64,000 bases of DNA from a virus (IMGVR_UViG_2061766007_000924:37396-101395), one strand, 5' to 3'. Shown: positions 6,026-59,031, counted from the stretch's first letter. Notes: a model not told the origin generated them from the letters alone. Made by a program: numbers and translations.

Positions 6026-8512
6026 GTGAGAGGTGGTGCACGATTGAAAACTGTCACTATATCAACTAACAGCATCTCAGAATATACCACTTTTGGAATT
6101 GGTGAGAGGGGAGAAAACGAAGTATCTGCTATCTCATTTGATTTCGGAGAGTGGATTGAAGAATATGGAGACGGAGCGCTATCTTTATATGTAAAGAGAA
6201 GCGGGGACAAAAACGCATATCCTGTTGCTTTACAGATTGAAGATACAATAGCAACGTGGAATATTTCTGACGTAGATACTGCGAATAAAGGACGAGGAGA
6301 AGCTGAACTTGTATATGTCTCTGACGGCAAGATCGAAAAGTCGGCTGTTTTCGGATTTGTCGTAAAAAGAGATATTGGGAAACCATCTGATACTCCTCCA
6401 GATCCTTATGAATCATGGCTCGATACTCTTACGGAGCTTGGAAGCCAGACACAGGAAAATGCCAATTTGGCAAGGGCCAGTGCTGATGAGGCAAAGGAAA
6501 GTGCTGACTCAGCAGCAGAGAGCTTGGAAGGTATAGGAGAGTATACAGAGAGAGCCGAGACAGCCGCCGAAAGTGCCGAACAGTCCGCGCAGGATGCGGC
6601 GGCGGCACTGGAAAACGTGCAGGAGACCGTTGACAACGCCTTGCAGGAGGCCAAAGACAGCGGCGAGTTTGACGGCAGAGACGGCACTGACGGGGAGGAC
6701 GGCGTGACCTATACGCCGTCCGTGGATGCTGCTGGCAACATCTCATGGACAAATGACGGCGGCTTGCCTAATCCACAGCCGAGAAACATCATGGGGCCGC
6801 AGGGCGATCCTCTCACCTATGCTGATCTGACTCCAGCCGACAAAGCAGACCTGATTCAAGGGCCGATTGCTGAAGCGCAGACTGCGGCTGTCGAGGCGGT
6901 CAATCAGGCTGGCACAACGCAGGTTGACAATGTCAACGCTGCCGGGGCCGCGCAGGTGGAAGCCGTGGAAGACAAAGGCGAGGACGTGCTGGAGAGCATC
7001 CCGTCCGACTATACCGAGCTGTCCGAGGACGTTGATACCTTAAAGAGCCAGATCAACGACAAAGCGGCTGTTATCGTTGACACCGCCTCCGGCGCGATTG
7101 CGTCATTCCCGGACGGCGCGGACGGTGTGCCCGTCAAATCCCTGACCGTAGCCGTTGAGCCTGTGCAGGATTTGCATGGTTACAACAGCCCGTGGCCTGC
7201 CGGGGGTGGGAAGAATAAACTTTCTTATCCTTATGGATTTGACACCAACACGATCAACGGATGCACGGCAACAGTCGCAACTGATGGAACAATGACATTT
7301 AGCGGAATACCAACCGAAAGTGCTTTGTTCAATATTAAACGTAGAGTAGATACCACTGGAAACTTCTATTTGTTTCTGCCAGAAGGAGAATACACTCTGA
7401 ATGGGTGCCCGTCTGGTGGTTCTGGAACAACGTATCAAATATCCGTCACTACTTCCAGTGGAGCGGTTGCCACAGACAGAGGTTCAGGGGCAACATTTAC
7501 ATCACCGAGTGGTGGCACTTACTGTACAGTTCAGGTTGCAATTTTCAGCGGAACAAATCCCAATTCCATTGTCTTCAAGCCGATGATTCGCCTTGCATCT
7601 GTATCCGATGCAACCTACGCCCCCTACTCCAACATCTGCCCCATCAGCGGCAGGACGAGCGCGACTGTGACGAGGACGGGGAAGAATCTGCTGTCGCTTT
7701 CGACTGTCGAACTTGGCGGTACTAACCAGAGAACAATAAGCGTAAGTATCGGAACAATCCCGCCCGGAACATATCGTTTCAGCGCGGTCAAAAGCGGAAC
7801 TGCAACAGGGAATTTTGGTATTCAGTTTCTTGACAGCGGCGGCAAAATAGCGGGGCAGATAAATACTGTTTTGCAAAATGTTACACTGACTGTCCCAGCT
7901 GTTAGGGCTTACGCTTATATGGCAAGCGGAGACTACAGTGACGGTAAAACGCTGGTCTTGTCCGACATACAGATTGAGATTGGCTCCACCGCCAGCGCCT
8001 ATGATCCATATCAAGCCAACACCTACACCATCGCCCTCGGCGATACCGTCTACGGCGGGACGCTCGATGTGACGCAAGGGAAGATGGTGGTGACGCACAT
8101 GCTTTTCAACCGCAATTCCGCAACGATGAACAATTCAAATGCATATCCCGGTTGGAATGATGCTGGATTAAAAGCTCTTGGGTATACGGGCGGTCGCAGT
8201 GGGATGAACACCTTGCTAAATATTGGATCAGAATTCAGCTATAACTGTTCTGGAAAGAACGACGTCCTCTTCTTTGGAGCTGGTGCTTACCACAAAACAC
8301 AAGAAGAATGGAAAGCACTTGCTCTTGACATCCAAATTGTTATTCCTCTCGTTACCCCCATCGAAATCACTCTCACGCCCACGCAGATTGACACCTTGTT
8401 CGGCACGAACAACATCTGGGCGGACGCTGGCCCGGTCGATGTGGACTACAGAGCGGATACCAAACTGTACATCGACAAGAAGTTAGCTGCCCTTGTTGCG
8501 GCGCTCAGTTAA
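6026..8512 (+). CDS. BppU-like N-terminal domain tail/receptor-binding protein, paralogous in part to 1464-4019
   Basis: N-terminus 'GERGENEVSAISFDF...ATWNISDVDT...GEAEL'. Ala-rich stalk and short collagen-like GxD repeats. Shares blocks with the 851-aa protein. Confidence 0.6.
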   Translation: MRGGARLKTVTISTNSISEYTTFGIGERGENEVSAISFDFGEWIEEYGDGALSLYVKRSGDKNAYPVALQIEDTIATWNISDVDTANKGRGEAELVYVSDGKIEKSAVFGFVVKRDIGKPSDTPPDPYESWLDTLTELGSQTQENANLARASADEAKESADSAAESLEGIGEYTERAETAAESAEQSAQDAAAALENVQETVDNALQEAKDSGEFDGRDGTDGEDGVTYTPSVDAAGNISWTNDGGLPNPQPRNIMGPQGDPLTYADLTPADKADLIQGPIAEAQTAAVEAVNQAGTTQVDNVNAAGAAQVEAVEDKGEDVLESIPSDYTELSEDVDTLKSQINDKAAVIVDTASGAIASFPDGADGVPVKSLTVAVEPVQDLHGYNSPWPAGGGKNKLSYPYGFDTNTINGCTATVATDGTMTFSGIPTESALFNIKRRVDTTGNFYLFLPEGEYTLNGCPSGGSGTTYQISVTTSSGAVATDRGSGATFTSPSGGTYCTVQVAIFSGTNPNSIVFKPMIRLASVSDATYAPYSNICPISGRTSATVTRTGKNLLSLSTVELGGTNQRTISVSIGTIPPGTYRFSAVKSGTATGNFGIQFLDSGGKIAGQINTVLQNVTLTVPAVRAYAYMASGDYSDGKTLVLSDIQIEIGSTASAYDPYQANTYTIALGDTVYGGTLDVTQGKMVVTHMLFNRNSATMNNSNAYPGWNDAGLKALGYTGGRSGMNTLLNIGSEFSYNCSGKNDVLFFGAGAYHKTQEEWKALALDIQIVIPLVTPIEITLTPTQIDTLFGTNNIWADAGPVDVDYRADTKLYIDKKLAALVAALS

Positions 8513-8856: not shown

Positions 8857-10170
8857 ATGAAATATTCGATTCCTGAAATCAATATCGAGTCTCTGGAAAA
8901 GAAGCTCACTCGCATCCAGAACAAGTGCAAGAAATATGGCTGCGAGTTCAAGTATGAGCGTCTTGGTGAGCACTTCGAGGAGAAGACGTTCTACGCTTAC
9001 GATTACGATGCTGTTGATGCTTTCGGCACTCCGGCAAGCAAGAAGTGGAAAGAGATTGTGAAGTACATCGACATTGATGTCGAGGGCACTGCGGCTGTCA
9101 ATGGCTGGCGTTACGTTGCAAGTCTTGAATACACTGAGAAGGGCAATATCATTGCTGGCACTGGAGACGTTGAGATTCCTGAGAAGTATTATCATTGTGC
9201 TCCTTGGTGTGAGCACTGCAAGACTGCTCGTGACAGGCGTTACAGCTACATCGTGATCAATGAGGAGACTGGTGAGTTCAAGCAGGTCGGCAAGAGCTGC
9301 TTGAAGGACTTCACTGGCGGACTGAGTGCTGAGTATGTGGCGAATTTCGAGAGCTTTCTGAAAGAGATTGAAGAGGCTCGTGAGTTTGAGAGCTTTGGCG
9401 GTTCTGGAGTGAAGTATTTCAACGTCAAAGAGTTCATGGAGGCCATTGCTGAGACGGTTCGGCTTTATGGGTACTGCAAGCGTGACGGCATGAACATTAG
9501 CACTGCTGACAGGGCTGAGGAAATCTACCGTGAGGCAAATGGCATGAGGATCACGGAGGCTGCTTATGAGAGAGTTCTTGATGCAAAGGATCGCGGACTC
9601 AATCTCAAAAATGCGGAGAGCGTTGAGCTTGCAAAGACGGTTCGTGAGTGGATTCTTGGGAACGAGAGAGAGGACAATTACTTTCACAATCTGAAAGTTG
9701 CTTGCGCTCTTGAGTATGGCGATTACAAGGTGCTTGGTCTTCTGGCCTCTGCTTTTCCGACTTACAATCGGGAGCTTGAGTTTGAGGCTGAGAAGAAAGC
9801 TCGTGAGGCGGCTGAGAAAGAGGCTGCTGCAAGGGCTGCTTGGATGGGCAAGGTTGGAGACAAAGTCAGATTCAAGATTGCAGATTTCAAGCGGATTTCT
9901 TCTTGGGAGACTCAGTGGGGATTGACTTGTGTGTACAAGTTCGTTGACGAGAATGGCCTTGAGGCCACTTGGAAGACGAACAACTGGGTCAATGACAGAC
10001 GGATCATCGGCAGCGTGATCAGCGGCAAGATCAAGGAGCTCAAAGAGTACAGAGGGATCAAGCAGACCGAGCTGACTCGCTGCAAGATTGAGTACAAGGA
10101 AGAGGAGAAAAAGCCGTACAACAATGAAGCTGAGAAAGCGTTTGAGGCTTTTCTGGAGGAGACGGCATGA
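8857..10170 (+). CDS. Phage hypothetical protein with CxxC motifs and a possible C-terminal OB-like fold
   Basis: 437 aa with strong RBS GGAGGT. 'CEHC...VGKSCLKDF'. First gene after P1. Confidence 0.6.
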   Translation: MKYSIPEINIESLEKKLTRIQNKCKKYGCEFKYERLGEHFEEKTFYAYDYDAVDAFGTPASKKWKEIVKYIDIDVEGTAAVNGWRYVASLEYTEKGNIIAGTGDVEIPEKYYHCAPWCEHCKTARDRRYSYIVINEETGEFKQVGKSCLKDFTGGLSAEYVANFESFLKEIEEAREFESFGGSGVKYFNVKEFMEAIAETVRLYGYCKRDGMNISTADRAEEIYREANGMRITEAAYERVLDAKDRGLNLKNAESVELAKTVREWILGNEREDNYFHNLKVACALEYGDYKVLGLLASAFPTYNRELEFEAEKKAREAAEKEAAARAAWMGKVGDKVRFKIADFKRISSWETQWGLTCVYKFVDENGLEATWKTNNWVNDRRIIGSVISGKIKELKEYRGIKQTELTRCKIEYKEEEKKPYNNEAEKAFEAFLEETA

Positions 10171-10583
10171 AGGTAGTGGTTATGAGCAGGAGAGAGGCTG
10201 TAAGCTACAGTTTCTCTCCGCATGACGAAAAAAGCGTTGTTGTGTCAATTGGAAGCATTGAAGGAAAGTATGATACAGCGGTTTATGCAAGCCCGTACAA
10301 TGGAATCTGCGCAGTTCTGCCGCTGAGGTTTGATGATGAAGAGGGCGGAGAAAACTGCATGGTAGTTGAAGAGGCGGTACAGATCAAGACGTTTGTAGAG
10401 AGGCACAAAGACAAATTGATCATTGTTCACTGTGACGCTGGAGTTTCAAGATCCGCAGGAATTGCAGCGGCTTTGCTGAAACACTACAACGGAGACGATT
10501 CGGCAATATTTGACAATCCAAGGTATGTGCCGAACATGCTGTGCTACAGAACGATGCTGAATGTGCTGGAGGGCAATACATGA
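10167..10583 (+). CDS. Protein-tyrosine / dual-specificity phosphatase-like protein
   Basis: CX5R P-loop 'IIVHCDAGVSRSAG'. Confidence 0.8.
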   Translation: MKVVVMSRREAVSYSFSPHDEKSVVVSIGSIEGKYDTAVYASPYNGICAVLPLRFDDEEGGENCMVVEEAVQIKTFVERHKDKLIIVHCDAGVSRSAGIAAALLKHYNGDDSAIFDNPRYVPNMLCYRTMLNVLEGNT

Positions 10584-49400: not shown

Positions 49401-51525
49401 CCGTTGAATCTATTGATGGTAGCTTGCTCATCCGTGAGGATATGGGCGCTTTCTGGAAAATGTTTGAAGATCCGTCATGGGCGAACAAAGATCATGAGCC
49501 AACGTGGTGCGAGTACCTGATGTGGGACAGGGCAAAGGGCACGGATATGCCGATGATGCTTGCGTATAAGTATTATGCAGACGATGAGAATGACGCTGAG
49601 GTTGAGAGGCGTATGGGGTATGAAGAATTTTCAAAAAGAGGGTGAAGCAGATGGATGAAAAGCTTTTTTATCGAGCAAGGGAAGAGGAAAACGGGGAAAT
49701 CGTGATTGAGGGCTATGCTTACGGCCCGGATTGGGTAGCAATGGCGATGTACATGGATGATTTGCTGTTTGATACTCCAGAAGAAGCTAAGGATTGGTGG
49801 AACAAGGAGAAGATGAATGGCTGAATACACAATCAAACCGAAAATTGAAATCAAGATCACAGATGAGGACATTGATGACATTATGAGTGCAGCTCTTGAG
49901 GGCGGCGTGAATTATTGGTGTTATCGGGTTGATGTTGTCGGAGGGAATTATCTGGGTGAGTGGGCGCATGAACAGATCAGCAGGGGTGGAAGACTGAGAC
50001 TTTTTGATGCGGAATCCGATGATACATGGATTCTGTCCAGAAAAAAGTTTTTGGAAGGTTTCAGACGTTGGGTGGAAAAGGGCTACGACAGCAATGGGGC
50101 GTGTTCATCTAATGGTGTTGACTGCTGTCTGATTGACGCTGGAGATGCTGACGTTATAGTTCAGTTAGCGATTTTTGGAGATGTCGTTTTTGGCTGATTG
50201 GAGGGGATACAGTGATGAACTGCAAAAACTGTGGATATAAGTATTGCGCTTTTCGCGGGGCTGACAGGGAAATTCCTGCTTACCTTTGCGAAGACTTTGA
50301 AGCAGTGAAAAAGGATGGAGAGCCATTGGCAGAGAAGAGATTTCCGCGAATGACTCCTTATGAGAGGACAAGGGCTGCGGTTTATGCGACAGGGAATCGC
50401 TGGGCGATTGAGAATTTTCATGCTACGCATGACTGAGAAGGGGGATTGAAGATGGGGCTTGACATGTATTTGGATCGGCTTCCGAGATATAAGCACTATT
50501 CGGTTCGGGATATGAACAACGTGGACAGCTATCTTGAGTGGCTGGATAGAGATGAAGAGTATAAGAAAGATTCGCTCGAAGCGTGGTGCGGCGTGGATGA
50601 GAAGGATCTTCCGCCGAAGGAAGACTTGGATTATCTCATTTCTCTTGCGAGACCGAGAACTTACGCATGGGATCATGAGAAACGGTATGAGAGAGTAAAG
50701 CTGAATGAGGGCGTTGCATATTGGCGCAAGGCGAATGCTATTCACAAATGGTTTGTTGATCACGTTCAGGACGGAGAAGATGACTGCGAGTATCATAGAG
50801 AAGTAACAAAGCAGGATCTTGAAGAGCTTCGAGATACATGCAAGGAAATTCTGGAGAAGTGCGTTCTCGTTAAAGGAAAAGTTCAGAACGGTTGGAAATG
50901 GGACAGCAAGAAAAACAAGGAAGTTCCGAACTATCAGGATGGTCTGCTGGTGGCAAATCCTGATGTGTGCAAAAAGACTCTTCCGAGCTGCGATGGATTT
51001 TTCTTCGGGGGCACAGAATACAACGAGTGGTACATAGAAGATGTGAGGTACACGTTTGAGACGCTGAGTAAGATCATTGAGGAGACAGACTTCGAGAAAC
51101 AGCAGCTTTGGTATTGCGCGTCTTGGTGATGGAGAATGAAAGAAAAGTATGATGTTTACTCTGAGTTTGATCTTGAGCAGCACAAAAAGCACTTCGTCAA
51201 CTATTTGGAGGTCATGATTGATGAGGACGGGAAAGTGCATTATGCTGTCCCGTCTCATCAAGAGTGGGCTATAGCGGAGGCGTGTAAAAGACTGGGCGTT
51301 ACGAGGCAAGAGCTTTCTGACATGACTCCACCAGAGTTCTATTTTGACTGGCTAAATTGGCTTTTGATGCAATGCAAGAGTGTAGCGGTATGGGAGGACT
51401 TCTACATGGCACCGATGGTCAACAAGAGGCAGTACGCAGCTCTGAGGCGGTTGAAAATGGACGGGGTATATAAAGGAAAGCTGTTAAGCAACGGATTGGA
51501 TTGGCACAGAATAGCAGAGGAGTAG
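46432..51525 (+). other. Run of acidic hypothetical early ORFs (e.g. 46432-46707, 47349-47678, 47856-48350, 48494-49009, 49019-49645, 50446-51129, 51136-51525)
   Basis: Co-oriented ORFs with strong RBSs. No recognisable catalytic motifs. Confidence 0.7.
48357..48423 (+). promoter_or_regulatory. Repeated phage promoter P7 (operator at 48467-48480)
   Basis: GCACAA-N16-CCGTGCG-N4-GTCAA-TGGAAA-N17-TAGAAT. Confidence 0.8.
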
Positions 51526-51983
51526 AGATGCAAGGAGTTGCGCCGAGTCGAAAAGCAAAGGAGCAGCACGGCAGGGAGAGGCAGAGCAAAGGAAAAGAAT
51601 CGTTTTGAAACGCAATGGCATAGAAGAGAAAAGAACCGCCAAGGAATTGCATGGCTAAGAATCACTTGGAATTGTAGATCGAGGGAAGCTACTGAATAGC
51701 ATGTATGGGATACGAAGCGCAAAGGCAGAGAGAGGAAGAGAGAGGAAGAGCGATGGAACAGCAAAGACGAGGAACGCCAAGGAATTGCATAGAGTAGATA
51801 GGCAGAGAGTTTGAAAAGAACCGCAATAGAGACGGGAGATTTGGAGAGCCTTGATTTGCAAAGGGAAAGTGTAGTGCGGCTTGGCAAAGGAATTGTAAAG
51901 ATACGAATTGCCAAGGAATAGCAGGGAATGAACAGCTAAGGACGAGAACAGTTGCGAACAGCAGAGGAGAGGAGGAGCAACGG
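51488..51983 (+). repeat. Array A1: GCNNNGG heptamers with (NNNNG)n-NNNN spacers, about 19 heptamers
   Basis: Heptamers at 51488, 51514, 51555, 51586, 51612, 51638, (51664), 51688, 51719, 51750, 51776, 51802, 51823, 51858, 51884, 51910, 51935, 51961, 51977. Spacers are mostly 19 or 24 nt with G at every fifth base. Confidence 0.85.
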
Positions 51984-52004
51984 ATGGAAAAGCACCTCCG
52001 TTAT

Positions 52005-52071
52005 GCACAAAAAAGAACACGAAAAACCGTGTATAACGTCAATAGACGGATGCTTGCTACAGCGTTAGAAT
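52005..52071 (+). promoter_or_regulatory. Repeated phage promoter P8, heading the unit that contains array A2 and RAMP gene A
   Basis: GCACAA-N16-CCGTGTA-N4-GTCAA-TAGACG-N17-TAGAAT. Confidence 0.8.
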
Positions 52072-52104
52072 ATGTATGCTGATAGGGCAGATATTTGACA
52101 GGAG

Positions 52105-52449
52105 GTGCTTTTGATGGATCTGAGAGATTACAAGGGTACGATTCGCGAGGCTGTTCGGCGTGAACGGCACTGTGATCAGAACTGGTCGTGGAAAGTGCTG
52201 GCAATCAGCAAGGAAAAGGCTTCAATCGCGTGGACGTATCTGACGGAGTATCTTGGGGAAAAGAGTTGCTTTGAGATTCGTGTGATCGAGGATAAGGTAG
52301 CTGGGACAGTCGTTGAGGCGAAGAGTCCTGACGGATTCAAAGTTATTCGGTTCATTGGAGAAGGGCGCTGGAACGATTTTGAGACTGTCGAAGAGGGGCT
52401 TGCAAGTGCGATTCATGGGGTTGCACAGCATGCTCACTGGGCTTACTGA
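52105..52449 (+). CDS. Hypothetical protein
   Basis: RBS AGGAGG. First gene after P8. Confidence 0.65.
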   Translation: MLLMDLRDYKGTIREAVRRERHCDQNWSWKVLAISKEKASIAWTYLTEYLGEKSCFEIRVIEDKVAGTVVEAKSPDGFKVIRFIGEGRWNDFETVEEGLASAIHGVAQHAHWAY

Positions 52450-52461
52450 GGAGGGTGCAAA

Positions 52462-52926
52462 ATGACTTACAAAGAATACAAGGTTATTCGTCAGAAGAGC
52501 GTCAATGATCTGCCCATCTTCTGGGCGTTCAGCAACAGTCAGTTCAAAGAAGCAATGGAGGAACGTGGTCTGACGGAGAACGACACTGACAAGATTTACA
52601 GTCTTGGTGGAGGCGGCTTTTATCTGAGGTCTGACGCTGAGGTGATTCACGCTTTCTTCAACAAAAAGGATGAGCTTCCTGAGCTCATGAAAGATCCGGC
52701 ATTTGCTGAGGAAGCTTTCTTCTATGAGATGAAGAATCATGAGTTCGGGATTAACTGGCAGGGAGCTTGGGATGTGTGTCGGTGCTTCGGCGACTGCGAG
52801 TACGGAGAGGAAAAGGGCGGAGTTGATTATCTCAGAGAGATGGGGTACGGAGAAGAGACGGTCGCTGCTTACAAGAGAGCAAAGAAGCATTATTACAAGA
52901 TGGCTGAGGAAAACGAGTGGTTTTAA
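52462..52926 (+). CDS. Phage hypothetical protein
   Basis: RBS GAGGAGG. 'FWAFSNSQF...GGGFY...YEMKNHEF'. Confidence 0.7.
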   Translation: MTYKEYKVIRQKSVNDLPIFWAFSNSQFKEAMEERGLTENDTDKIYSLGGGGFYLRSDAEVIHAFFNKKDELPELMKDPAFAEEAFFYEMKNHEFGINWQGAWDVCRCFGDCEYGEEKGGVDYLREMGYGEETVAAYKRAKKHYYKMAEENEWF

Positions 52927-52939
52927 TGGAGGCGCGACA

Positions 52940-53119
52940 ATGACGAGTAATCAGTATTGGATCTTTCTGGAGGAACTGAGGCGTTCTGGAGCAGTCAACA
53001 TGTATGGGGCCGGGCCTTACATCAAAGAGGTGTTTGGGGTCAGCAGTAGAGAGGCAAGAAACATTCTTGCTGACTGGATGGCGCACTACGATCCAAAAGA
53101 TTACGAAGCTATGGAGTAG
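52940..53119 (+). CDS. Small hypothetical protein whose stop codon lies inside the start of array A2
   Basis: RBS GGAGG. 'LEELRRSGAVNMYGAGPY'. Confidence 0.65.
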   Translation: MTSNQYWIFLEELRRSGAVNMYGAGPYIKEVFGVSSREARNILADWMAHYDPKDYEAME

Positions 53120-53812
53120 CATTGAACGGCGAAGTCTTGAAATGATTAGCGAAGGCGTAGCGCACAGGAGAATTGAGCGGCAAAGGCAGAGAATAGACGT
53201 GAGCTGATGTGCAATGGATTGGCACGGAATTGAAGGGAATGGTGCAGAGCTGCTATGGAATAGCTCAGAGTAGATAGGCAGAGGAGTGGAGTCGATTGGG
53301 TGAGAACTGCAATGGAAAGGCGGGGAGAGGTGTGGCAGCGCCACGGAGCAGCCATGGTTTGAAATGATATGCAATAGAAGAGCACAGAAGCGCTGAGGAT
53401 CGAAGTGCTAAGGCACAGCGTGGAGGGGGGATGAGGTGAACTGCAAAGGCATAGGCGTGCGAGGACGAGCGAGGCGAGGGAATAGCCGGGTGCTGAGTAG
53501 AAGCGCAACGGATTAGCGTGGACGAGAGTTGATTCGCAAAGGCAAAGAAAGGACAGGCACCGAACCGCTAAGGAGAGGTCAAGAGTCGCGCCGCCAAGGT
53601 AAGGTTCAGCAAGGACAGGATTTGCAGAGGCAAGGCATCGAAACGAATGGTTATGAGACGCAAGGGTGAGGCCACGGTCGGATCAGAGCCGCAAAGGTAA
53701 GGAGAGGCGTGAAAGGGACTTGCAATGCAAAGGAAAGGCGGGGGATCGCAGGGTAAGGAGTGGCACCGCAAAGGAAGGATTGCAATGGATTAGCATGGCG
53801 TAGTCAAGATGT
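53108..53812 (+). repeat. Array A2: 22 GCNNNGG-type heptamers with (NNNNG)n-NNNN spacers (putative guide RNA array)
   Basis: Spacer lengths 34,24,24,34,19,24,24,24,29,29,24,24,24,24,19,24,29,24,29,34,7,24. G at 90 of 92 expected fifth positions. Ends 38 bp before the RAMP-like gene. Confidence 0.92.
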
Positions 53813-53850
53813 GAAAAAACAAATTTAATTAAAAGGAAGGAATTGAAAAC

Positions 53851-54537
53851 ATGGAAAAGATCAACGTGAGAGCAACTTTTATCGAGAGCGTGCTTGGGAC
53901 TGCAAGCAACAACAAGAACATCTATGAGGAGTTCATTGCCAGCAAGGCACCGAATGCGATGAGCGCAGAGGAAGAGATTGCGGCAGTCGGTGTCAATGAG
54001 GTCGTAGAGAAGGGAACAACGGTGTTTCCGCGCATGGAAGACGGCACTCCGATGTTCTGGGATTACCAGATCAGAGGGTTCTTCAAGGACACTTGCGGAA
54101 TGCTGAGTAAGTTGACGGAAAAGGACGAGAACGGCAAGAAGAAAAAGGCTGTGAATGAGTCTGGAAAGATCACGGCATACAAGAAAGTGATTGACGGTCT
54201 GATTTTCGTAGAGCCGCGCAAGATTCCGATTAAGTTCAATGGAGACATTACGATTTGTCAGCGTCCGCTTCGCGCAATGACGGCGCAGGGTGAGAGAATT
54301 GCTCTGGCAAGTTCTGAGGAGATTCCGGCAGGAGCACAGATTGAGTTCTCTGTCGTGTGCATGAGCGCAGAGCATGTCAAGGCTGTCAAGGAATGGCTTG
54401 ATTACGGTTACTGGCGCGGACTTTCTCAGTGGCGCAATTCGGGTAAGGGCCGCTTTGTATACGAGATCCTTGACGATGACGGGAACGCCATTGAAGGGAA
54501 CACAAAGCTGGCGGGAAAATACTTGAAGACAGCGTGA
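53851..54537 (+). CDS. Stand-alone RAMP/Cas7-like protein A
   Basis: C-terminal Gly-rich loop 'GLSQWRNSGKGRF'. 'TPMFWDYQIRGFFK' sits at the position of the Cas7 IPGSS.KG motif. Thumb-like 'RPLRAMTAQGERIALASSEEIPAG'. Confidence 0.72.
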   Translation: MEKINVRATFIESVLGTASNNKNIYEEFIASKAPNAMSAEEEIAAVGVNEVVEKGTTVFPRMEDGTPMFWDYQIRGFFKDTCGMLSKLTEKDENGKKKKAVNESGKITAYKKVIDGLIFVEPRKIPIKFNGDITICQRPLRAMTAQGERIALASSEEIPAGAQIEFSVVCMSAEHVKAVKEWLDYGYWRGLSQWRNSGKGRFVYEILDDDGNAIEGNTKLAGKYLKTA

Positions 54538-54541
54538 TATT

Positions 54542-54608
54542 GCACAAAAACAAGCACTGGATTCCGTGTATAGCGCCAATTGATTATTAGGCGCTGTAGC
54601 GGTATCAT
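54542..54608 (+). promoter_or_regulatory. Repeated phage promoter P9 (leader hairpin 54611-54651, operator 54655-54668)
   Basis: GCACAA-N16-CCGTGTA-N4-GCCAA-TTGATT-N17-TATCAT. Confidence 0.8.
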
Positions 54609-54675
54609 AATGGTGCGAAGAGCTGAGAGATCAGCATTTTTCTTCGCACCAGATGTGCTAAATAGCGAATAGAAG

Positions 54676-56456
54676 ATGCCAACGAGCGGCAGGAGGGTTA
54701 TGATGGAAAACGCACTTGAAAAGCTGAATGGTCTGTTTGAAGAGCTTGTTCCTGATGCTGGGCCAGCGGAAACTAAAGCCGGGGAACTTGTTCGTGCTGT
54801 TAGCAGAATCGGATATCGTTACTACAACGATGGAGACAAGATTGGCGTGGAACGCGGGAACGAGACATGCAATGCTGCTGCGCGGTACATCATGAGCGAA
54901 TTTGCGGATCAGGACTTTTCATGGACTGTGAACGGAATGTGGGGCCTCGTGAGTGACAGGTACTATGAGAAGGGGCTTGGGCTCCTGATTGAGCAGGTTG
55001 TTAAATACATAGAGAGCGATCCTGAAATCTCGGAAGAGATAAACGAATGCGACTATGACGATGACTACTATGAGGCAGAGGATGCGGAGTGGGATAAAGA
55101 GGAGGAAGCTTTCGAGCCTGTGGCTGTGTACGATCCTGAGCCTGAGTGGGAGGAGTGAAATAAATGCTGAAATGCAATGGCTATAAGATGTTCAAGGGCA
55201 AGGTGCTTGTAGATTTTCAGAATGGAGCGAAGCCGTTTCCAGTTGAAGGGACGTGGCTTCATAAACCGGAGGATGCATGCTGGTATCTTGCGCCTACGGA
55301 CGGCTATCCGTGGGGGTACAGCTTCGATGACAAGTTTGTGACTATTCTGGAGGATGCGTCATGAGCATATCAGAACACAAGGTATATAGGGACATGAGAT
55401 TTCCGAAAGACTGCTGGGATAAGAAATGCATACACTTTCATTGCTGGGACATGAGTGTTGATGACATCTGCTGTTTGTGTGACATTTTGCAGAGAGAATG
55501 TGACGCTTGCGATGAAGACTTTAGCTACGTGAGATGTCCGCTGGATGAGAAAGATGGTACACGTTAGAGGTCGAAGAGTTTGAGGTTGAGCTGTGAGCTG
55601 GGAAACAATGTATGACAAGAGAGAGGGCATTGAGCCTCTTTTAGATAGGTTCAGGAGACTTCCGCTGTGGGCTGTTTCAATGGCTTATGCTTACGCATTT
55701 AACATAGCTCAATATGGAGTGGATGCTTCCGAGAAGTGGGAAACAATCACAAAGCAGCAGGAGATGCTTGACAGAGCATACAGAAAAGGCAGATATGATG
55801 AGGCTGCAAGATGGAGGGGAAAGTGTAATGGTTAGGGTCTACGGCTGTTCGGATGATCTTGTAGAGATTGAAGGAGCAAAATATCCAGATGATGAGATTG
55901 ATTGCTTCGACAAGGATATGCTGATCGGGTTCAAGGACGGAACAGAAATCCGAATTGGCTATCCGAAGGAAAACTTGGCTGTCTGGTGGATTGAGATTGA
56001 GAAAACAGGCGGAGCTGCTTATGCCATGAACCGCTGCTATGATCAGGACGCAGAAATCTACAGTGATGTGTTTTCTATCAACAGTGAGGTAGCATGGCAT
56101 AAGGCTGTGAGGAAGAAATACAAATGGGAGTAAGTGGAACGAAAAGGAAAGAGCTTCTTGCCGTTCAGAAAAGAGAAAATGGCACAGAACTTTGTGGCGT
56201 GGATGGAGTGTATGTAATTCCAAGTGGAAGAAAGCACGAAAGCGGATGGGCATGCATGGACTTTGTGGCGACATTCAGAGATGATAGACCGATGGTAAGG
56301 TTCGGCGGGATCTGTGATGATGTTTCGTTCTATGGCCCACATTTCAGAATGGACTGTGACCATCCGAGCAGGATCATTCACATTTGGAACAGTCATGGGA
56401 CATTCACGGTATCAGGAATGGATATTTCGAGCTTGAACTTCGCGGAAGAGGAATGA
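54676..56456 (+). other. Six hypothetical ORFs between P9 and system B
   Basis: Co-oriented, closely spaced ORFs. Confidence 0.65.
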
Positions 56457-56481
56457 AGGGAGAGAAAAAGAAGTGAGTTAG

Positions 56482-56547
56482 GGATTATGTGGTTGGCATG
56501 GGCAGGGTGTGGCTCGGATGGGTATGGCGCGGTTAGGTAAGGATTAT
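56482..56547 (+). repeat. Array B1: one unit of 10 GGY-NN pentamers between GGATTAT delimiters
   Basis: GGATTAT gt GGTtg GCAtg GGCag GGTgt GGCtc GGAtg GGTat GGCgc GGTta GGTaa GGATTAT. Confidence 0.88.
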
Positions 56548-56582
56548 ATGGAAAAAGAACAAAATGGAAAGGAATTGATTAA

Positions 56583-57173
56583 ATGAAAAAGCTGCATGTT
56601 ATTTTGAATGGTACGTCTCCGCTGATTGAGCATTCTCCGAAGTGTGTGAATCCGCTTCATCCGATTTCAAAGGAAATGAAGAAGTACACCAGCAAGAAGA
56701 AAAAGACAGAAGAGGATCTTATGAAGCTCAGTGACCTTGAGTGGGAAGCTGGAGTTTATTGGGATGACAACATTGGGCTTGTTATTCCTAACGAGTGCAT
56801 CGCTGCCACATTTCTCGCGGGGGCAAAGATGAACAAGAACGGCACCAACTTCCAGAAATATGTCCACATTATTGATGGACAGGCACCGCTGGACATTGGA
56901 GAGGTGCAGAATTATGATGAGCTCAAGACGGAGGCGAGATTTAGAGATGTCAGAAGCGTCTGCGTCATGAGATCAAGGGTTATTCGCACGAGACCGAGAT
57001 TCAACACATGGAGAACTGAGTTCGACATGATGTTTGACGAGACAAAGATTGACGTGGATGCAATCATCATGGCTATTGAGAATGCAGGAGCATATTGCGG
57101 AATGTGCGAGATGCGCAATATGGGCTACGGAAGATTCTCCGCAAATATCACAGAGGTAGAGATGGCTGCATAA
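56583..57173 (+). CDS. Stand-alone RAMP/Cas7-like protein B (Vipr-like)
   Basis: N-terminal 'LNGTSPLIEH', 'GLVIPNECI', 'RTRPRFNTWRTEF', and C-terminal Gly loop 'GAYCGMCEMRNMGYGRF'. Flanked on both sides by GGY-NN arrays. Confidence 0.78.
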   Translation: MKKLHVILNGTSPLIEHSPKCVNPLHPISKEMKKYTSKKKKTEEDLMKLSDLEWEAGVYWDDNIGLVIPNECIAATFLAGAKMNKNGTNFQKYVHIIDGQAPLDIGEVQNYDELKTEARFRDVRSVCVMRSRVIRTRPRFNTWRTEFDMMFDETKIDVDAIIMAIENAGAYCGMCEMRNMGYGRFSANITEVEMAA

Positions 57174-57178
57174 GGTTT

Positions 57179-57365
57179 GGATTTTGCGGCGGGGTTCGGT
57201 CTGACTGGTTCCGGCAAGGCAGGGTATGGTTGGATGCGGTTAGGTAAGGATTATGCGGCATGTTCTGGTTAGGATCGGTAATGCGAGGTAAGGTAAGGTA
57301 CGACATGGCGTGGATTATTAGGTTGGGCCCGGCGCGGATTGGTGAGGCGTGGTCAGGTAAGGCAA
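57179..57365 (+). repeat. Array B2: three units of 12, 11 and 9 GGY-NN pentamers
   Basis: Delimiters GGATTTT (57179), GGATTAT (57248) and GGATTAT (57312). Confidence 0.9.
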
Positions 57366-57387
57366 GAAACATGAAAGGAGACAATAC

Positions 57388-57858
57388 ATGAACAGAAAAG
57401 AAAAAGTACAGGCGCTCGTGCAGGAGTTTCTGGGCAAGGACTACGGAGGCTCAATGACTCATTATGAGATTGCGAGTGTTATTGAAGAGAGAGAAGGGTC
57501 TACAAAATATAGGAGCATTGTTGAGGCGGCGCAGAAAAAGCTCCTTGAATGTGGAAAGATGATCGAGAATGTGCGCGGGGTAGGGTATAGAGTAATCAAT
57601 CCTGATGAGTACACGGGGCAGTCTGCAAGATGCGTTGTCAGTGGAGCAAAGAGAATTGACAAAGGCACAAAGATTTTGCAGAACGCTCCAGTGAAGGACA
57701 TGACTCAGGACGGTGTTACCCAGTACAACATGATTTCAGACAAGATCAGGATTCTACAGGCCGCTGTATGCGGAGCTAAGGTAGAAATTAACATGCTCAG
57801 TTCTAAGAGGGAAAATCCCTTGAAGAGGATGAGCGAACGGGCAGGATTGTTCAGGTAA
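57388..57858 (+). CDS. Hypothetical accessory protein embedded between arrays B2 and B3 (possible winged helix plus helical tail)
   Basis: RBS AAGGAG, 156 aa. 'MIENVRGVGYRV' resembles a wHTH wing. Confidence 0.7.
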   Translation: MNRKEKVQALVQEFLGKDYGGSMTHYEIASVIEEREGSTKYRSIVEAAQKKLLECGKMIENVRGVGYRVINPDEYTGQSARCVVSGAKRIDKGTKILQNAPVKDMTQDGVTQYNMISDKIRILQAAVCGAKVEINMLSSKRENPLKRMSERAGLFR

Positions 57859-58194
57859 GGTTTATATGGCTGGGCGAGTCGAGTTTAGGTCAGGCATGGT
57901 GAGATCAGGAGAGACATGGCAAGGCGAGTTCGGGCGGGGTATGGTATGGATTATAAGGCAAGGAATGGTCAGGTAAGGCGTGGTCAGGTAAGGTTAGGAA
58001 TATGAGGTTAGGCATGGTAATGAAGGCACGGTCAGGTAAGGCACGGTCAGGTGAGGCAAGGGTTATAAGGTCAGGCAAGTATGGGCGAGGTCGGTTCTGG
58101 CGTGGAATGGTAAGGGTTATAAGGTAAGGCGGGTTAGGGTTAGGAATGTTAGGGCATGTTCAGGCATGGTATGGCACGGTATGGTAAAAATTAT
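57859..58194 (+). repeat. Array B3: five units of 16, 8, 11, 9 and 13 GGY-NN pentamers
   Basis: Delimiters GGTTTAT (57859), GGATTAT (57948), GGAATAT (57997), GGGTTAT (58060), GGGTTAT (58114) and AAATTAT (58188). Confidence 0.9.
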
Positions 58195-58215: not shown

Positions 58216-59031
58216 ATGATCGGAGCGATTATTGGAGATATTGTAGGCAGCAGATTCGAGTTCAACAACATCAAGTCTAAGGACTTTGAGTTCCTGCATC
58301 CCGATTGCAGGACTACGGATGACACAGTGATGACTTGTGCAGTAGCCGAGGCGCTGATGCGGAGCTGGAGACTGGACAGGTTTGAGACGCTGCCTGATGT
58401 GGCAAGAGAGACACTGAGACAGATTGGGTACTGGTATCCGTATTGCGGGTTCGGCGGCAAGTTCATCAAGTGGATCTATTCTGAGAAAGATCCTGAGCCG
58501 TACAACAGCTGCGGCAACGGGGCTGCAATGAGAATCAGCGCTGTAGGAGACATCGCTGAGAGCATCAAGGAAGCGAAGATGCTGAGTCATGGGGTGACGG
58601 TGATCAGTCATAATCATCCAGAAGGGCTCAAGGGTGCTGAGGCTGTAGCTGTAGCAAATTTCCTTGCACGGTCTGGAAAGAGTAAGAAGGAGATCCGCAA
58701 GTACATTGAGGACAACTACTATGAGCTTGACAAGACCGTAGAGGACTACAGGCACGAGACGCTTGGGCACGGTAAAGAGATTTGCCAGATCAGTGTACCA
58801 CAGGCGTTTGTGTGCTTCTTTGAGGGCAAGAGCTACAGGGATGTGATTCGCAACTGCATTTCGATTGGCGGCGACAGCGACACGATTGCGGCAATTGCCG
58901 GAGGCATTGCAGAGGCGTTCTATGGAGTTCCTGATAGTGACGTGAGGATGGCGAGAAGGTACATGGATACAACCATGAGAGACATCTATGACTCTTTTGA
59001 GACTTTCAAGAAAATTAAAGTGGGAGGTTGA
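58216..59031 (+). CDS. ADP-ribosylglycohydrolase family protein
   Basis: 'GAIIGDIVGS', 'TTDDT', 'SCGNGAAMR', 'SHNHPEG', 'GGDSDTIAAIAG'. Confidence 0.92.
   Translation: MIGAIIGDIVGSRFEFNNIKSKDFEFLHPDCRTTDDTVMTCAVAEALMRSWRLDRFETLPDVARETLRQIGYWYPYCGFGGKFIKWIYSEKDPEPYNSCGNGAAMRISAVGDIAESIKEAKMLSHGVTVISHNHPEGLKGAEAVAVANFLARSGKSKKEIRKYIEDNYYELDKTVEDYRHETLGHGKEICQISVPQAFVCFFEGKSYRDVIRNCISIGGDSDTIAAIAGGIAEAFYGVPDSDVRMARRYMDTTMRDIYDSFETFKKIKVGG

What the first reader, a model, noticed from the sequence alone, without database searches (positions are those of the whole stretch)
51488..58194. Two orthogonal pentamer-code RAMP systems within 7 kb of one phage
Seen: the two RAMP-like proteins share little beyond the C-terminal G.GRF loop. 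Their arrays share a design (5-nt step, 7-nt delimiter, variable number of steps, start at or overlapping the upstream stop codon, sense strand) but use different fixed bases (NNNNG with GCNNNGG versus GGYNN with GGATTAT). Each lies in its own transcription unit (P8 and P9), and I saw no mixing of array types. Inference: the protein and the array grammar co-evolve, and the family contains several orthogonal codes. This gives a natural pair for working out how the fixed bases are read.
Basis: partly seen in the sequence, partly recalled or inferred. Interest (0 to 1): 0.82.

Follow-up and report, generated by a model that had tools for sequence, protein, structure and literature searches.

The report
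Two VIPR guide-RNA systems, one phage
This rumen phage carries two different VIPR systems side by side (CRISPR-like, RNA-guided DNA silencers of phages first described in 2026), so the odd five-base repeats are real and functional but belong to a known kind, and one guide demonstrably points at the DNA polymerase gene of rival phages.

Summary
Five intergenic tracts between 51.5 and 58.2 kb carry strict 5-nt periodicity found nowhere else in the 101-kb phage. There are two grammars and they never mix. Both neighbouring proteins have the Cas7/Csm3 (RAMP) fold.

This scan found the same kind before on other DNA: these are VIPR systems (Vipr protein, vrRNA guides, accessory vap gene), described in 2026 bioRxiv preprints.

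- **System B** (196 aa, GGY/NN repeats) is a clear homologue of the solved SUSP1 Vipr (profile E 5e-39).
- **System A** (228 aa) has single-G repeats (G-M-a-N-N) and units offset by one base. This fits the published "NNNNG" and "staggered" variants, but it matches SUSP1 Vipr in sequence only at the glycine loop.

New here:
- The A+B pair recurs in a related 145-kb phage contig.
- Repeat grammar follows protein clade. A G-loop change (Trp to Ser) goes with GGY becoming GTT.
- Guide B5, read by the published 1-nt-skip rule, matches at least 116 viral contigs exactly. The match sits in a conserved family-A DNA polymerase motif, in codon register.
- A divergent phage keeps the same guide dinucleotides.

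Not tested: orthogonality (no cross-loading), system A's targeting rule, and RNA expression. Verdict: new members of a known kind, moderate interest.

The parts
51488..51990 (+). A-type vrRNA array 1, about 14 units. Each unit is a conserved pentamer GCNAN, one extra G, then 3-15 pentamers of the form G-M-a-N-N. It starts inside the last 38 nt of ORF 51136-51525.
   Evidence: Unit parse, HMM logo, motif enrichment, period-5 power.
52105..53119 (+). Three small ORFs between the two A arrays: 52105-52449 (114 aa), 52462-52926 (154 aa, DUF7659) and 52940-53119 (59 aa). Whether any of them is a vap-type accessory gene is unknown.
   Evidence: ORF list. Pfam DUF7659 at E 1.4e-20. Their conservation next to vipr-A was not tested.
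53108..53812 (+). A-type vrRNA array 2, about 25 units of 26-41 nt, directly upstream of vipr-A.
   Evidence: A relative, L128, has the same arrangement: array at 6800-7490, then the A gene.
53851..54537 (+). vipr-A: a 228-aa stand-alone RAMP with a Cas7-like fold. Its G-loop reads SQWRNSGKGRF.
   Evidence: Model pLDDT 76.5. Foldseek best hits are type VII Cas7 and Csm3, E 1.6e-5. More than 7,700 relatives and no Pfam family. No sequence match to SUSP1 Vipr beyond the G-loop.
54622..54645 (+). Terminator-like hairpin with a T run after vipr-A. It separates system A from the six ORFs that precede system B.
   Evidence: Consensus scan. Function not shown.
56482..56547 (+). B-type vrRNA B1: a leading GGATTAT, then 10 GGYNN repeats, then GGATTAT. 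It lies upstream of vipr-B.
56583..57173 (+). vipr-B: a 196-aa homologue of SUSP1 Vipr (type II-like). It keeps H17, E71, R137, E176 and R178. It has M177 where SUSP1 has W178.
   Evidence: Profile against PDB chain 36pp_D 'SUSP1 Vipr protein', E 4.9e-39 over the full length. tblastn against phiSUSP1 gives 35.8% identity. Model pLDDT 88, best fold hit Csm3. Residue mapping.
57174..57365 (+). B-type array 2 with three vrRNAs: B2 at 57178-57254, B3 at 57255-57318 and B4 at 57319-57365. It starts right after the vipr-B stop codon.
57388..57858 (+). Candidate vap (accessory) gene, 156 aa, phrog_5926.
   Evidence: It is conserved in the order vipr, array, this gene in 25 B-family viral loci and in L128-L131. 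It shares only a GVGYRV stretch with SUSP1 vap1, pairwise E 0.002.
57840..58194 (+). B-type array 3. A short first unit overlaps the 3' end of the vap candidate. Then come vrRNAs B5 (57866-57954), B6 (57955-58003), B7 (58004-58066), B8 (58067-58120) and B9 (58121-58194).
57868..57954 (+). vrRNA B5: 16 repeats plus GGATTAT. This guide is directed against a conserved motif (W-D-E-Y-H-I-D-Q-E-I-N-D-R-G) of the family-A DNA polymerase genes of other phages.
   Evidence: The 1-nt-skip pattern of repeats 1-10 gives at least 116 exact hits in IMG/VR. Repeats 11-14 were not searched for and also match. The gene is DNA_pol_A / phrog_17. L011 and L012 carry the same guide.

Best explanation
The region holds two complete, co-resident VIPR (Viral Interference Programmable Repeat) systems of different clades.

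**How such a system works.** These steps are published for the SUSP1 and P. fulva type II systems and are not shown for this phage. The tract is transcribed with the genes. Vipr protomers bind one pentamer each and form a helical filament. The fixed bases are flipped into protein pockets. The variable NN of each pentamer are left free to pair with double-stranded DNA, skipping every third target base. Binding silences the target gene.

**System B** (56482-58194) is vrRNA, vipr-B, three vrRNAs, a vap candidate, then five or six vrRNAs. It is a type II-like system with GGY/NN repeats. It differs from SUSP1 in having almost no 3' tail, only GGATTAT.

**System A** (51488-54537) is two long arrays and vipr-A. 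It belongs to a very large family of gut and rumen phages whose repeats keep one strong G and a weak A/C next to it.

**Delimiting of guides (my inference).** In both systems neighbouring guides are out of step by one base: B units are 5n+4 nt and A units are 5n+1 nt. I infer that this lattice slip, rather than a structured tail, ends each filament and so delimits the guides.

**Function (shown by sequence for one guide).** The system acts in phage-against-phage interference. Guide B5 matches codon positions 1-2 of a conserved DNA polymerase motif in many other phages. This phage has no such gene.
For: **B is a Vipr.**
- The A1 profile matches PDB 36pp_D 'SUSP1 Vipr protein', E 4.9e-39, residues 1-190 of both.
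- tblastn against phiSUSP1 gives 35.8% identity.
- The GGY-contacting residues named in the cryo-EM paper are conserved or conservatively changed.

**The arrays are real.**

**Gene and array travel together.**
- 43 of 45 B-family viral loci carry an array directly after the gene.
- A-family loci carry single-G arrays next to the gene.

**A is a RAMP.** Foldseek gives type VII Cas7, Csm3 and Cas7-11, E about 1e-5. The G-loop aligns Q193-W194-R195 with the Vipr D-W-R.

**The published description fits.**
- Vipr plus vap plus flanking intergenic vrRNAs, and seven types.
- Alternative NNNNG repeats.
- Staggered arrays whose vrRNAs overlap by 1 nt.

**A natural target exists for guide B5.**
- Three other B patterns of the same size gave 0, 0 and 0 hits.
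- In 20 aligned hits the next four NN (AA, GA, CG, GG), which were not part of the search, also match. [quoted passage not shown] L227 matches all 32 of 32 bases.
- The gene is a family-A DNA polymerase: PF00476 E 5e-25, phrog_17 E 4e-145.
- The phage itself has no homologue and no self-target.

**Selection acts on NN.** The B5 guide in L011 and L012, whose Vipr is 55% identical, keeps the NN of 12 consecutive repeats while the 'fixed' bases differ. At repeat 13, CG becomes AG; both dinucleotides begin arginine codons seen at that target position.
Against: - No RNA data exist. Transcription, strand, processing sites and binding of the RNA to the proteins are inferred.
- Protein A has no detectable sequence homology to any described Vipr beyond the G-loop. 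Its published type could not be assigned, because the papers' figures and tables are not held.
- No target was found for any A guide read as NN with a 1-nt skip. A different function or rule for system A is therefore not excluded.
- Only one of seven B guides searched (B1, B2, B3, B4, B5, B8, B9) gave a clear target. B3 and B8 were searched only against the loci already fetched.
- The SUSP1-type pseudoknot tail is absent.
- The vap assignment rests on synteny and one short motif.
Confidence: 0.82

Rival explanations
1. System A is not a DNA-targeting VIPR. Protein A would be a separate RAMP lineage that coats its single-G array RNA for another purpose, for example as an RNA scaffold, a decoy or sponge for host or rival RAMP complexes, or a regulator of the genes embedded between the arrays. 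Alternatively it uses a targeting rule other than NN with a 1-nt skip.
For: - There is no sequence homology to Vipr beyond the G-loop.
- The units are very short, mostly 3-6 variable pentamers. Read as NN, each guide would then carry only 6-12 specifying bases.
- Four A guides read as NN with a 1-nt skip found nothing beyond chance.
Against: - The architecture matches published VIPR: a RAMP gene flanked by period-5 arrays on the gene strand, with two low-information positions per pentamer.
- The VIPR paper lists NNNNG repeats and staggered arrays among its types.
- The target searches were few and required exact matches, so the blanks carry little weight.
Confidence: 0.15
2. The two systems are not orthogonal. 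Either Vipr can load either array, and the different grammars reflect ancestry rather than a specificity barrier.
For: - Both grammars keep a G at position 1.
- Both G-loops keep the x-W/M-R core.
- B arrays in this clade tolerate a degenerate G2: 78% G here and 53-60% in close relatives.
- The literature shows that solo vrRNAs from other elements can be loaded by a resident Vipr when the tails match.
Against: - Grammar tracks the protein family in every locus examined, including the second phage that carries both systems (L128).
- A has A/C where B needs a pyrimidine-compatible pocket and has no second G.
- GGY-to-AGY, GAY or GGA substitutions are among the perturbations reported to abolish SUSP1 silencing.
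Confidence: 0.2
3. The tracts act as DNA rather than as RNA guides. They could be protein-binding iterons, G-rich or R-loop-forming origin elements, or recombination hot spots that merely sit next to RAMP genes.
For: No expression data are available. The tracts are G-rich on one strand.
Against: - Homologous tracts in SUSP1 are transcribed and co-purify with Vipr.
- Guide B5 matches a foreign gene by the published RNA-DNA pairing rule, with independent extension of the match.
- NN are conserved and the fixed bases drift between two phages. This is the reverse of what a protein-binding DNA iteron would show.
Confidence: 0.03

Closest known systems
Type II VIPR of Escherichia phage SUSP1 and the Pseudomonas fulva prophage (bioRxiv 10.64898/2026.04.26.720920; structures in 10.64898/2026.04.26.720927; PDB 36pp)
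   Same: System B shares:
- a homologous Vipr (E 4.9e-39, 35.8% identity);
- GGY/NN pentamers, 8-16 per guide;
- one vrRNA upstream and arrays downstream of vipr;
- a small gene after vipr;
- targeting of rival phage genes in codon register by the 1-nt-skip rule.
   Different: - There is no about-40-nt pseudoknot tail. Guides are separated only by GGATTAT plus 2 nt, which shifts the lattice by one base.
- An array is inserted between vipr and the vap candidate.
- Met replaces the G2-stacking Trp178, and G2 is relaxed.
- The host is probably a rumen Clostridia lineage rather than Enterobacteria.
Non-canonical VIPR types: NNNNG, YNNNG and NNNGG repeats and staggered arrays (Methods and fig. S17-S18 legends of 10.64898/2026.04.26.720920), and 21 non-GGY clusters (10.64898/2026.10.21.760802)
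   Same: System A shares a stand-alone RAMP next to period-5 arrays with a single strong G, and neighbouring units offset by one base.
   Different: - I could not see the figures or tables, so I cannot say whether this exact protein family and its punctuation (GCNAN plus G) are among the published types.
[quoted passage not shown]
Class 1 CRISPR backbone subunits (Csm3 of type III-A, Cas7 of type VII, Csf2 of type IV, Cas7-11)
   Same: The best structural matches of both predicted models fall here: RRM core, thumb and glycine-rich loop, with one protomer per RNA segment.
   Different: - The step is 5 nt rather than 6.
- There is no CRISPR repeat, no Cas5, Cas6, Cas10 or Cas11, and no adaptation genes.
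- The guide is non-contiguous (2 of every 5 bases) rather than 5 of every 6.
- Sequence identity is only 8-16%.

Membership tests
VIPR (system B, type II-like) | The Vipr protein is a single-RRM RAMP homologous to the described Vipr. | tested here: met
   Profile A1 against PDB 36pp_D 'SUSP1 Vipr protein', E 4.9e-39, full length. tblastn against KT454805.2 gives 35.8% identity, E 1e-24. The fold matches Csm3/Cas7.
VIPR (system B, type II-like) | vrRNA tracts of tandem GGY/NN pentamers lie in the intergenic DNA flanking vipr. | tested here: met
   In-phase parse. HMM logo G 93%, G 78%, Y 88%, N, N. 13 hits against 0.04 expected.
VIPR (system B, type II-like) | Residues that hold G1, G2 and Y3 in the cryo-EM structure: H17, D177, R138, W178, R179, E71/M72. 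| tested here: inconclusive
   H17, E71, R137 and R178 are kept. D177 becomes E176. W178 becomes M177. M72 becomes C72 (residue roles).
VIPR (system B, type II-like) | A conserved, structured 3' tail (a pseudoknot in the SUSP1 clade) caps each vrRNA. | tested here: not met
   Only GGATTAT or a close variant follows each guide. More distant relatives do have long hairpin delimiters: L029, L034, L042, L039 and L041. The paper allows other array architectures.
VIPR (system B, type II-like) | An accessory vap gene lies next to vipr. | tested here: inconclusive
   ORF 57388-57858 is conserved in synteny in 25 viral loci and in L128-L131. Similarity to SUSP1 vap1 is limited to GVGYRV plus context, E 0.002. 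No Pfam family matches.
VIPR (system B, type II-like) | Guides match foreign mobile elements by the 1-nt-skip rule and do not match the phage's own genome. | tested here: met
   B5 matches at least 116 viral contigs in the DNA polymerase A gene, with an unsearched extension that also matches. No self-match rises above shuffled controls. The phage has no homologue of that polymerase.
VIPR (system B, type II-like) | vrRNAs are expressed and form an RNP with Vipr. | not testable with these tools
   No RNA run holds the sequence.
VIPR (system A, non-canonical type) | A stand-alone RAMP with RRM core, thumb and G-loop. | tested here: met
   Foldseek gives type VII Cas7 at E 1.6e-5, plus Csm3, Cas7-11 and Csf2. 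The G-loop aligns with the Vipr and Csm4 G-loops. The model is only moderate: pLDDT 76.5, with residues 28-51 below 50.
VIPR (system A, non-canonical type) | Homology to described Vipr proteins. | tested here: inconclusive
   hmmsearch of profile A2 against PDB sequences gives no Vipr hit. hhalign against a 15-member Vipr profile aligns only 30 G-loop columns, probability 14%. The Vipr family was defined by structure, and its types are highly diverged.
VIPR (system A, non-canonical type) | Period-5 arrays with fixed and variable positions lie next to the gene, across relatives. | tested here: met
   Window. Viral loci: 39 arrays G-M-N-N-N and 9 G-N-N-N-N. Loci from genome assemblies: 24 G-N-N-N-N and 15 G-M-N-N-N.
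VIPR (system A, non-canonical type) | The repeat consensus and array layout are among those published (NNNNG; staggered, 1-nt overlap). | tested here: inconclusive
   The text of the Methods and the fig. S18 legend fits. Unit lengths are 5n+1. The figures and supplementary data are not held.
VIPR (system A, non-canonical type) | Guides match foreign DNA by a gapped rule. | tested here: inconclusive
   Four guides read as NN with a 1-nt skip gave one chance-like hit each in two searches and none in the others. Other rules were not tested.
CRISPR-Cas class 1 | A CRISPR repeat-spacer array with cas genes (Cas5, Cas6, large subunit, adaptation module). | tested here: not met
   No Pfam Cas families occur among the neighbouring ORFs. 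No Rfam CRISPR repeat is found. The arrays have a 5-nt period, not 60-79 nt.

The most novel reading that the evidence does not exclude
The most novel reading has three parts.

1. The two co-resident systems form a true orthogonal pair: each Vipr loads only its own grammar.
2. System A represents a huge family in gut and rumen Clostridia phages (more than 7,700 clusters at 90% identity) that reads a single G. It uses short guides of about one helical turn, with a targeting rule not yet described.
3. In both systems a one-base slip of the pentamer lattice (+1 in A, -1 in B) replaces the structured tail as the signal that ends a filament and delimits a guide.
Probability: 0.3. Interest if true: 0.6.

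Novelty: new member of a known kind. Interest (0 to 1): 0.42.

Why it matters
VIPR was described only months ago, from E. coli and Pseudomonas models.

- This locus shows that two distant Vipr lineages can sit together in one phage, and again in a relative. That gives a natural test bed for guide-loading specificity and for two-channel programmable repression.
- It gives a clean natural target outside Enterobacteria: a conserved DNA polymerase motif of rival gut and rumen phages, hit in codon register. A divergent phage preserves the same guide. This supports the published idea that wobble-skipping blocks escape by synonymous mutation.
- The link between a G-loop residue and the second fixed base (Trp/Tyr/Phe/Ala/Met with G, Ser with T) is a concrete lead for re-engineering repeat specificity.
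- The near-absence of a tail suggests a smaller guide format.

Tried and rejected
- **Similar phages and known RNAs.** Megablast of 51-59 kb against GenBank phages gave no match. Rfam gave nothing relevant.
- **Expression.** No RNA holder is listed. Only DNA runs hold the stretch, and the likely source is a bovine gut metagenome.
- **Promoters.** Promoter-like sites are not above chance (7 found, 8.1 expected), so P8/P9 are unverified.
- **Homology between A and B.** hhalign gives probability 2%. Against a broader Vipr profile it gives 14%, G-loop only.
- **B-guide target scans.**
  - B1: 0 hits in IMG/VR and one chance-like hit in metagenomes, with no codon register.
  - B2 and B9: 0 hits.
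  - B3, B4 and B8: 0 hits in the loci held.
  - B4 with 18 specified bases: 6 near-identical contigs, which count as one independent hit, about chance.
- **A-guide target scans (NN, 1-nt skip).**
  - The 15-repeat unit gave one hit whose extension fails.
  - The same unit gave none with up to 3 mismatches in 401 genomes of the order of a rumen Clostridiales genome bin.
  - Three 7-repeat units gave one unextended hit and two blanks in the loci held.
- **Self-targeting.** B guides against the phage's own genome under 0-3-nt skips gave nothing above shuffled controls.
- **Supplementary tables** of the VIPR paper are not held, so the published type of system A could not be assigned.
- **Lost tool.** The script machine was lost. 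A planned anchored logo of A units, a Vipr tree with grammar mapped on it, and an exhaustive target search could not be run.
- **TRAP-like or CsrA-sponge readings** of the repeats were considered early and dropped once the RAMP folds and the VIPR homology were found.

Full report
**1. What is in the sequence**

A sliding Fourier measure of 5-nt periodicity picks out only five stretches in the 64-kb window, and the same ones in the whole 101,395-bp virus record. They are 51.6-51.97, 53.67-53.83, 56.47-56.6, 57.16-57.39 and 57.83-58.25 kb, and all exceed the 99.9th percentile. All lie between + strand genes.

The three right-hand tracts parse into GGYNN pentamers that stay in phase through whole units. 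The units are closed by GGATTAT or a one-base variant, and their lengths (49, 54, 59, 64, 74, 89 nt) are all 5n+4. Four consecutive GGY steps occur 13 times, all at 56521-58185 on the + strand, against 0.04 expected.

The two left-hand tracts have a G every fifth base. GCNNNGG recurs every 26, 31, 36 or 41 nt, all 5n+1. A pattern of the delimiter plus two G steps occurs 26 times, 21 of them at 51488-53798, against 3.9 expected. Neither pattern occurs in the other kind of tract.

A five-state cyclic HMM gives the logos:
- A tracts: G (93-97%), A/C (about 85%), an A-rich base, N, N.
- B tracts: G (93%), G (78%), Y (88%), N, N.

One refinement: the A 'delimiter' is a conserved pentamer GCNAN followed by one extra G. 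The lattice thus slips by +1 between A units and by -1 between B units.

**2. The proteins**

ORF 53851-54537 (A, 228 aa) has no Pfam or PHROG family. ORF 56583-57173 (B, 196 aa) is phrog_4652, of unknown function.

Both have many uncultured relatives: more than 7,700 clusters for A and about 1,000 for B.

AlphaFold models built on these alignments have pLDDT 88 for B and 76.5 for A. Their best matches are Csm3 of type III-A, Cas7 of type VII, Cas7-11 and Csf2, with Foldseek E about 1e-5 and TM 0.45-0.56.

The two proteins share only the C-terminal glycine loop.

**3. This is a known kind**

A look-up of earlier notes of this scan pointed to the VIPR preprints. I then read them.

- bioRxiv 10.64898/2026.04.26.720920 describes phage-borne Vipr RAMPs, flanking vrRNAs of GGY/NN pentamers, and vap accessory genes. 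It gives the 1-nt-skip DNA-pairing rule, seven types, alternative NNNGG, YNNNG and NNNNG repeats, and staggered arrays whose vrRNAs overlap by 1 nt.
- 10.64898/2026.04.26.720927 gives the structural reading of GGY. There is one protomer per repeat. G1 is held by H17 and D177, G2 by R138 and W178, and Y3 by E71/M72, R179 and others.
- 10.64898/2026.10.15.759431 covers competition between a phage and its satellite, and solo vrRNAs.
- 10.64898/2026.10.21.760802 reports 99 period-5 clusters, 21 with non-GGY trinucleotides.

I tested membership directly.
- The B-family profile matches PDB chain 36pp_D, 'SUSP1 Vipr protein', at E 4.9e-39 over the full length.
- tblastn finds phiSUSP1 at 35.8% identity.
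- B keeps H17, E71, R137 (equivalent to R138) and R178 (equivalent to R179). It has E176 for D177 and M177 for W178.
- Protein A gives no Vipr hit by sequence. Profile-profile comparison aligns only the G-loop, placing A's Q193-W194-R195 on D-W-R. Its membership therefore rests on fold, on the conserved neighbourhood of period-5 arrays, and on the paper's mention of NNNNG repeats.

**4. Does grammar track the protein?**

- Of 45 IMG/VR loci with a B homologue (27-83% identity), 43 have a period-5 array starting right after the gene.
- The delimiters range from 7 nt to about 37-nt hairpin repeats.
- The logos are GGY/NN in most loci. A subclade (L015, L018-L024) has GTT/NN, with the second base T in 51-76% and G in 0-19%.
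- That subclade, and only it, has Ser at the position of the G2-stacking Trp178, and Asn at the M72 position.
- Clades with Trp, Tyr, Phe or Ala keep G2 at 71-79%. The Met clade, to which this phage belongs, averages 66%.
- The Ser clade is one lineage. This is one evolutionary event, not a statistical correlation.
- A-family loci show G-M-N-N-N or G-N-N-N-N. These are 80 viral loci and 80 from genome assemblies, mostly Oscillospiraceae, Faecalibacterium and other Clostridia bins.
- The A-family arrays are never GGY next to the gene. The one exception is a separate GGY tract 2 kb downstream in L132.

The co-variation part of the interpretation therefore survives.

**5. Two systems together**

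None of the 125 IMG/VR loci, nor the 80 loci from genome assemblies, has both proteins within the flanks fetched (±6 kb and ±5 kb).

A 145-kb ENA contig (L128) does have both:
- an A homologue (68% identity) at 7511-8185, with a single-G array upstream;
- a B homologue (82%) at 10001-10576, 1.8 kb downstream, with GGY arrays and the same following gene.

The pairing is therefore inherited in this phage lineage, and each system keeps its grammar. The available text of the VIPR papers does not mention two systems in one genome.

**6. What the guides do**

I read the nine B guides by the published rule: positions 4-5 of each pentamer, with one skipped target base.

- Against the phage's own genome and 2.2 Mb of fetched loci, no guide scores above shuffled controls.
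- Exact-pattern scans of IMG/VR, each with 20 specified bases, gave 0 hits for B1, B2 and B9.
- In 20 aligned hits the target reads TGG GAy GAr TAy CAy ATh GAy CAr GAr ATy AAy GAy CGn/AGr GGn.
- The ten searched dinucleotides fall on codon positions 1-2. The next four guide dinucleotides (AA, GA, CG, GG) were not in the search pattern and also match.
- One contig, L227, matches all 32 guide bases.
- The gene is a family-A DNA polymerase: PF00476 E 5e-25, phrog_17 E 4e-145.
- This phage, 92% complete by the record's estimate, has no homologue.
- The same guide is present in L011 and L012, whose Vipr is only 55% identical. Aligned, the NN of 12 consecutive repeats are identical while Y3 and G2 differ in 8 of them. 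At repeat 13, CG is replaced by AG; both dinucleotides begin arginine codons found at that position in the targets.

This is the signature of selection on the guide bases. It fits the published view that VIPR silences essential genes of rival phages in a register that synonymous mutation cannot escape.

**7. What remains open**

- For system A, four guides read as NN with a 1-nt skip found nothing beyond chance. Its rule, its targets and even its DNA-targeting role are inferred by analogy.
- Most A units have only 3-6 variable pentamers, about one turn of the published six-protomer helix. Under the NN rule each would carry little specificity.
- My suggestion that the ±1 lattice slips act as tail-less filament stops is inference only.
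- Expression could not be examined, because no RNA run holds the sequence.
- Promoters were not distinguishable from chance.
- Cross-loading between the two systems cannot be addressed by computation.
- The script machine was lost, which prevented a tree-based test and an exhaustive target search.

**8. Verdict**

It rediscovers VIPR, which was published during 2026 and which this scan has found on other genomes.
- The locus is a new member of a known kind. Three points are worth a specialist's attention: the natural A+B pair, the polymerase-directed guide shared across divergent phages, and the G-loop residue that goes with the second fixed base.

Noticed in passing
L047 about 6600-7260 (also L048, L049): In some A-family loci, vipr-A appears interrupted near its 3' end by a ~650-nt insert that carries an ORF. 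The last ~15 codons (…SGKGRF.YEILN stop) recur after the insert. This looks like a homing-endonuclease or intron-like insertion.
   Followed up: no
L108 1-220: A period-10 tract (TTYGGCTTNN repeated about 20 times) lies 6 kb upstream of an A-family vipr gene. It may be another array type or unrelated.
   Followed up: no
L132 7571-7970: A contig from a genome bin with an A homologue (61% identity) and single-G arrays also has a strong GGY/NN array 2 kb downstream. No B homologue is detectable by tblastn. It could be solo vrRNAs or a third, more distant Vipr.
   Followed up: no
window 58216-59031; L128 11908-12738; L129 6501-7313: An ADP-ribosylglycohydrolase gene (PF03747, E 7e-33) follows the B system in this phage and in two relatives. 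It may be a counter-defence gene linked to the locus.
   Followed up: partly
L129 11085-12530: A related phage contig encodes a TROVE/Ro60 protein with a vWA domain, 5.5 kb downstream of its vipr-B.
   Followed up: no
window 57955-58066: Guides B6 and B7 contain an internal 15-nt repeat (GGTCA GGTAA GGCNN). Read by the 1-nt-skip rule, they would match a 9-bp-periodic target, such as a repeat protein or iterons.
   Followed up: no
L015, L018-L024 (B-family loci): One subclade uses GTT/NN instead of GGY/NN. It has D-S-R in the G-loop (Ser at the SUSP1 W178 position) and Asn at the M72 position.
   Followed up: yes
L029, L034 (about 37-nt repeat GGACTCTTTTGAGTTGGTGGCGGTTACGCGAATGT); L042; L039, L041, L044: More distant B-family arrays separate their GGY runs by long conserved hairpin repeats or GC-rich stem-loops, giving a CRISPR-like look. 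This contrasts with the 7-nt punctuation in this phage.
   Followed up: partly
window 52462-52926: A DUF7659 protein (E 1.4e-20) is encoded between the two A arrays, within what may be one transcript with the guides.
   Followed up: no
L212-L291 (IMG/VR contigs with the B5 target): The targeted DNA polymerase A motif is present in at least 116 viral contigs from many IMG/VR sample sets. The rival phage group is therefore widespread.
   Followed up: partly
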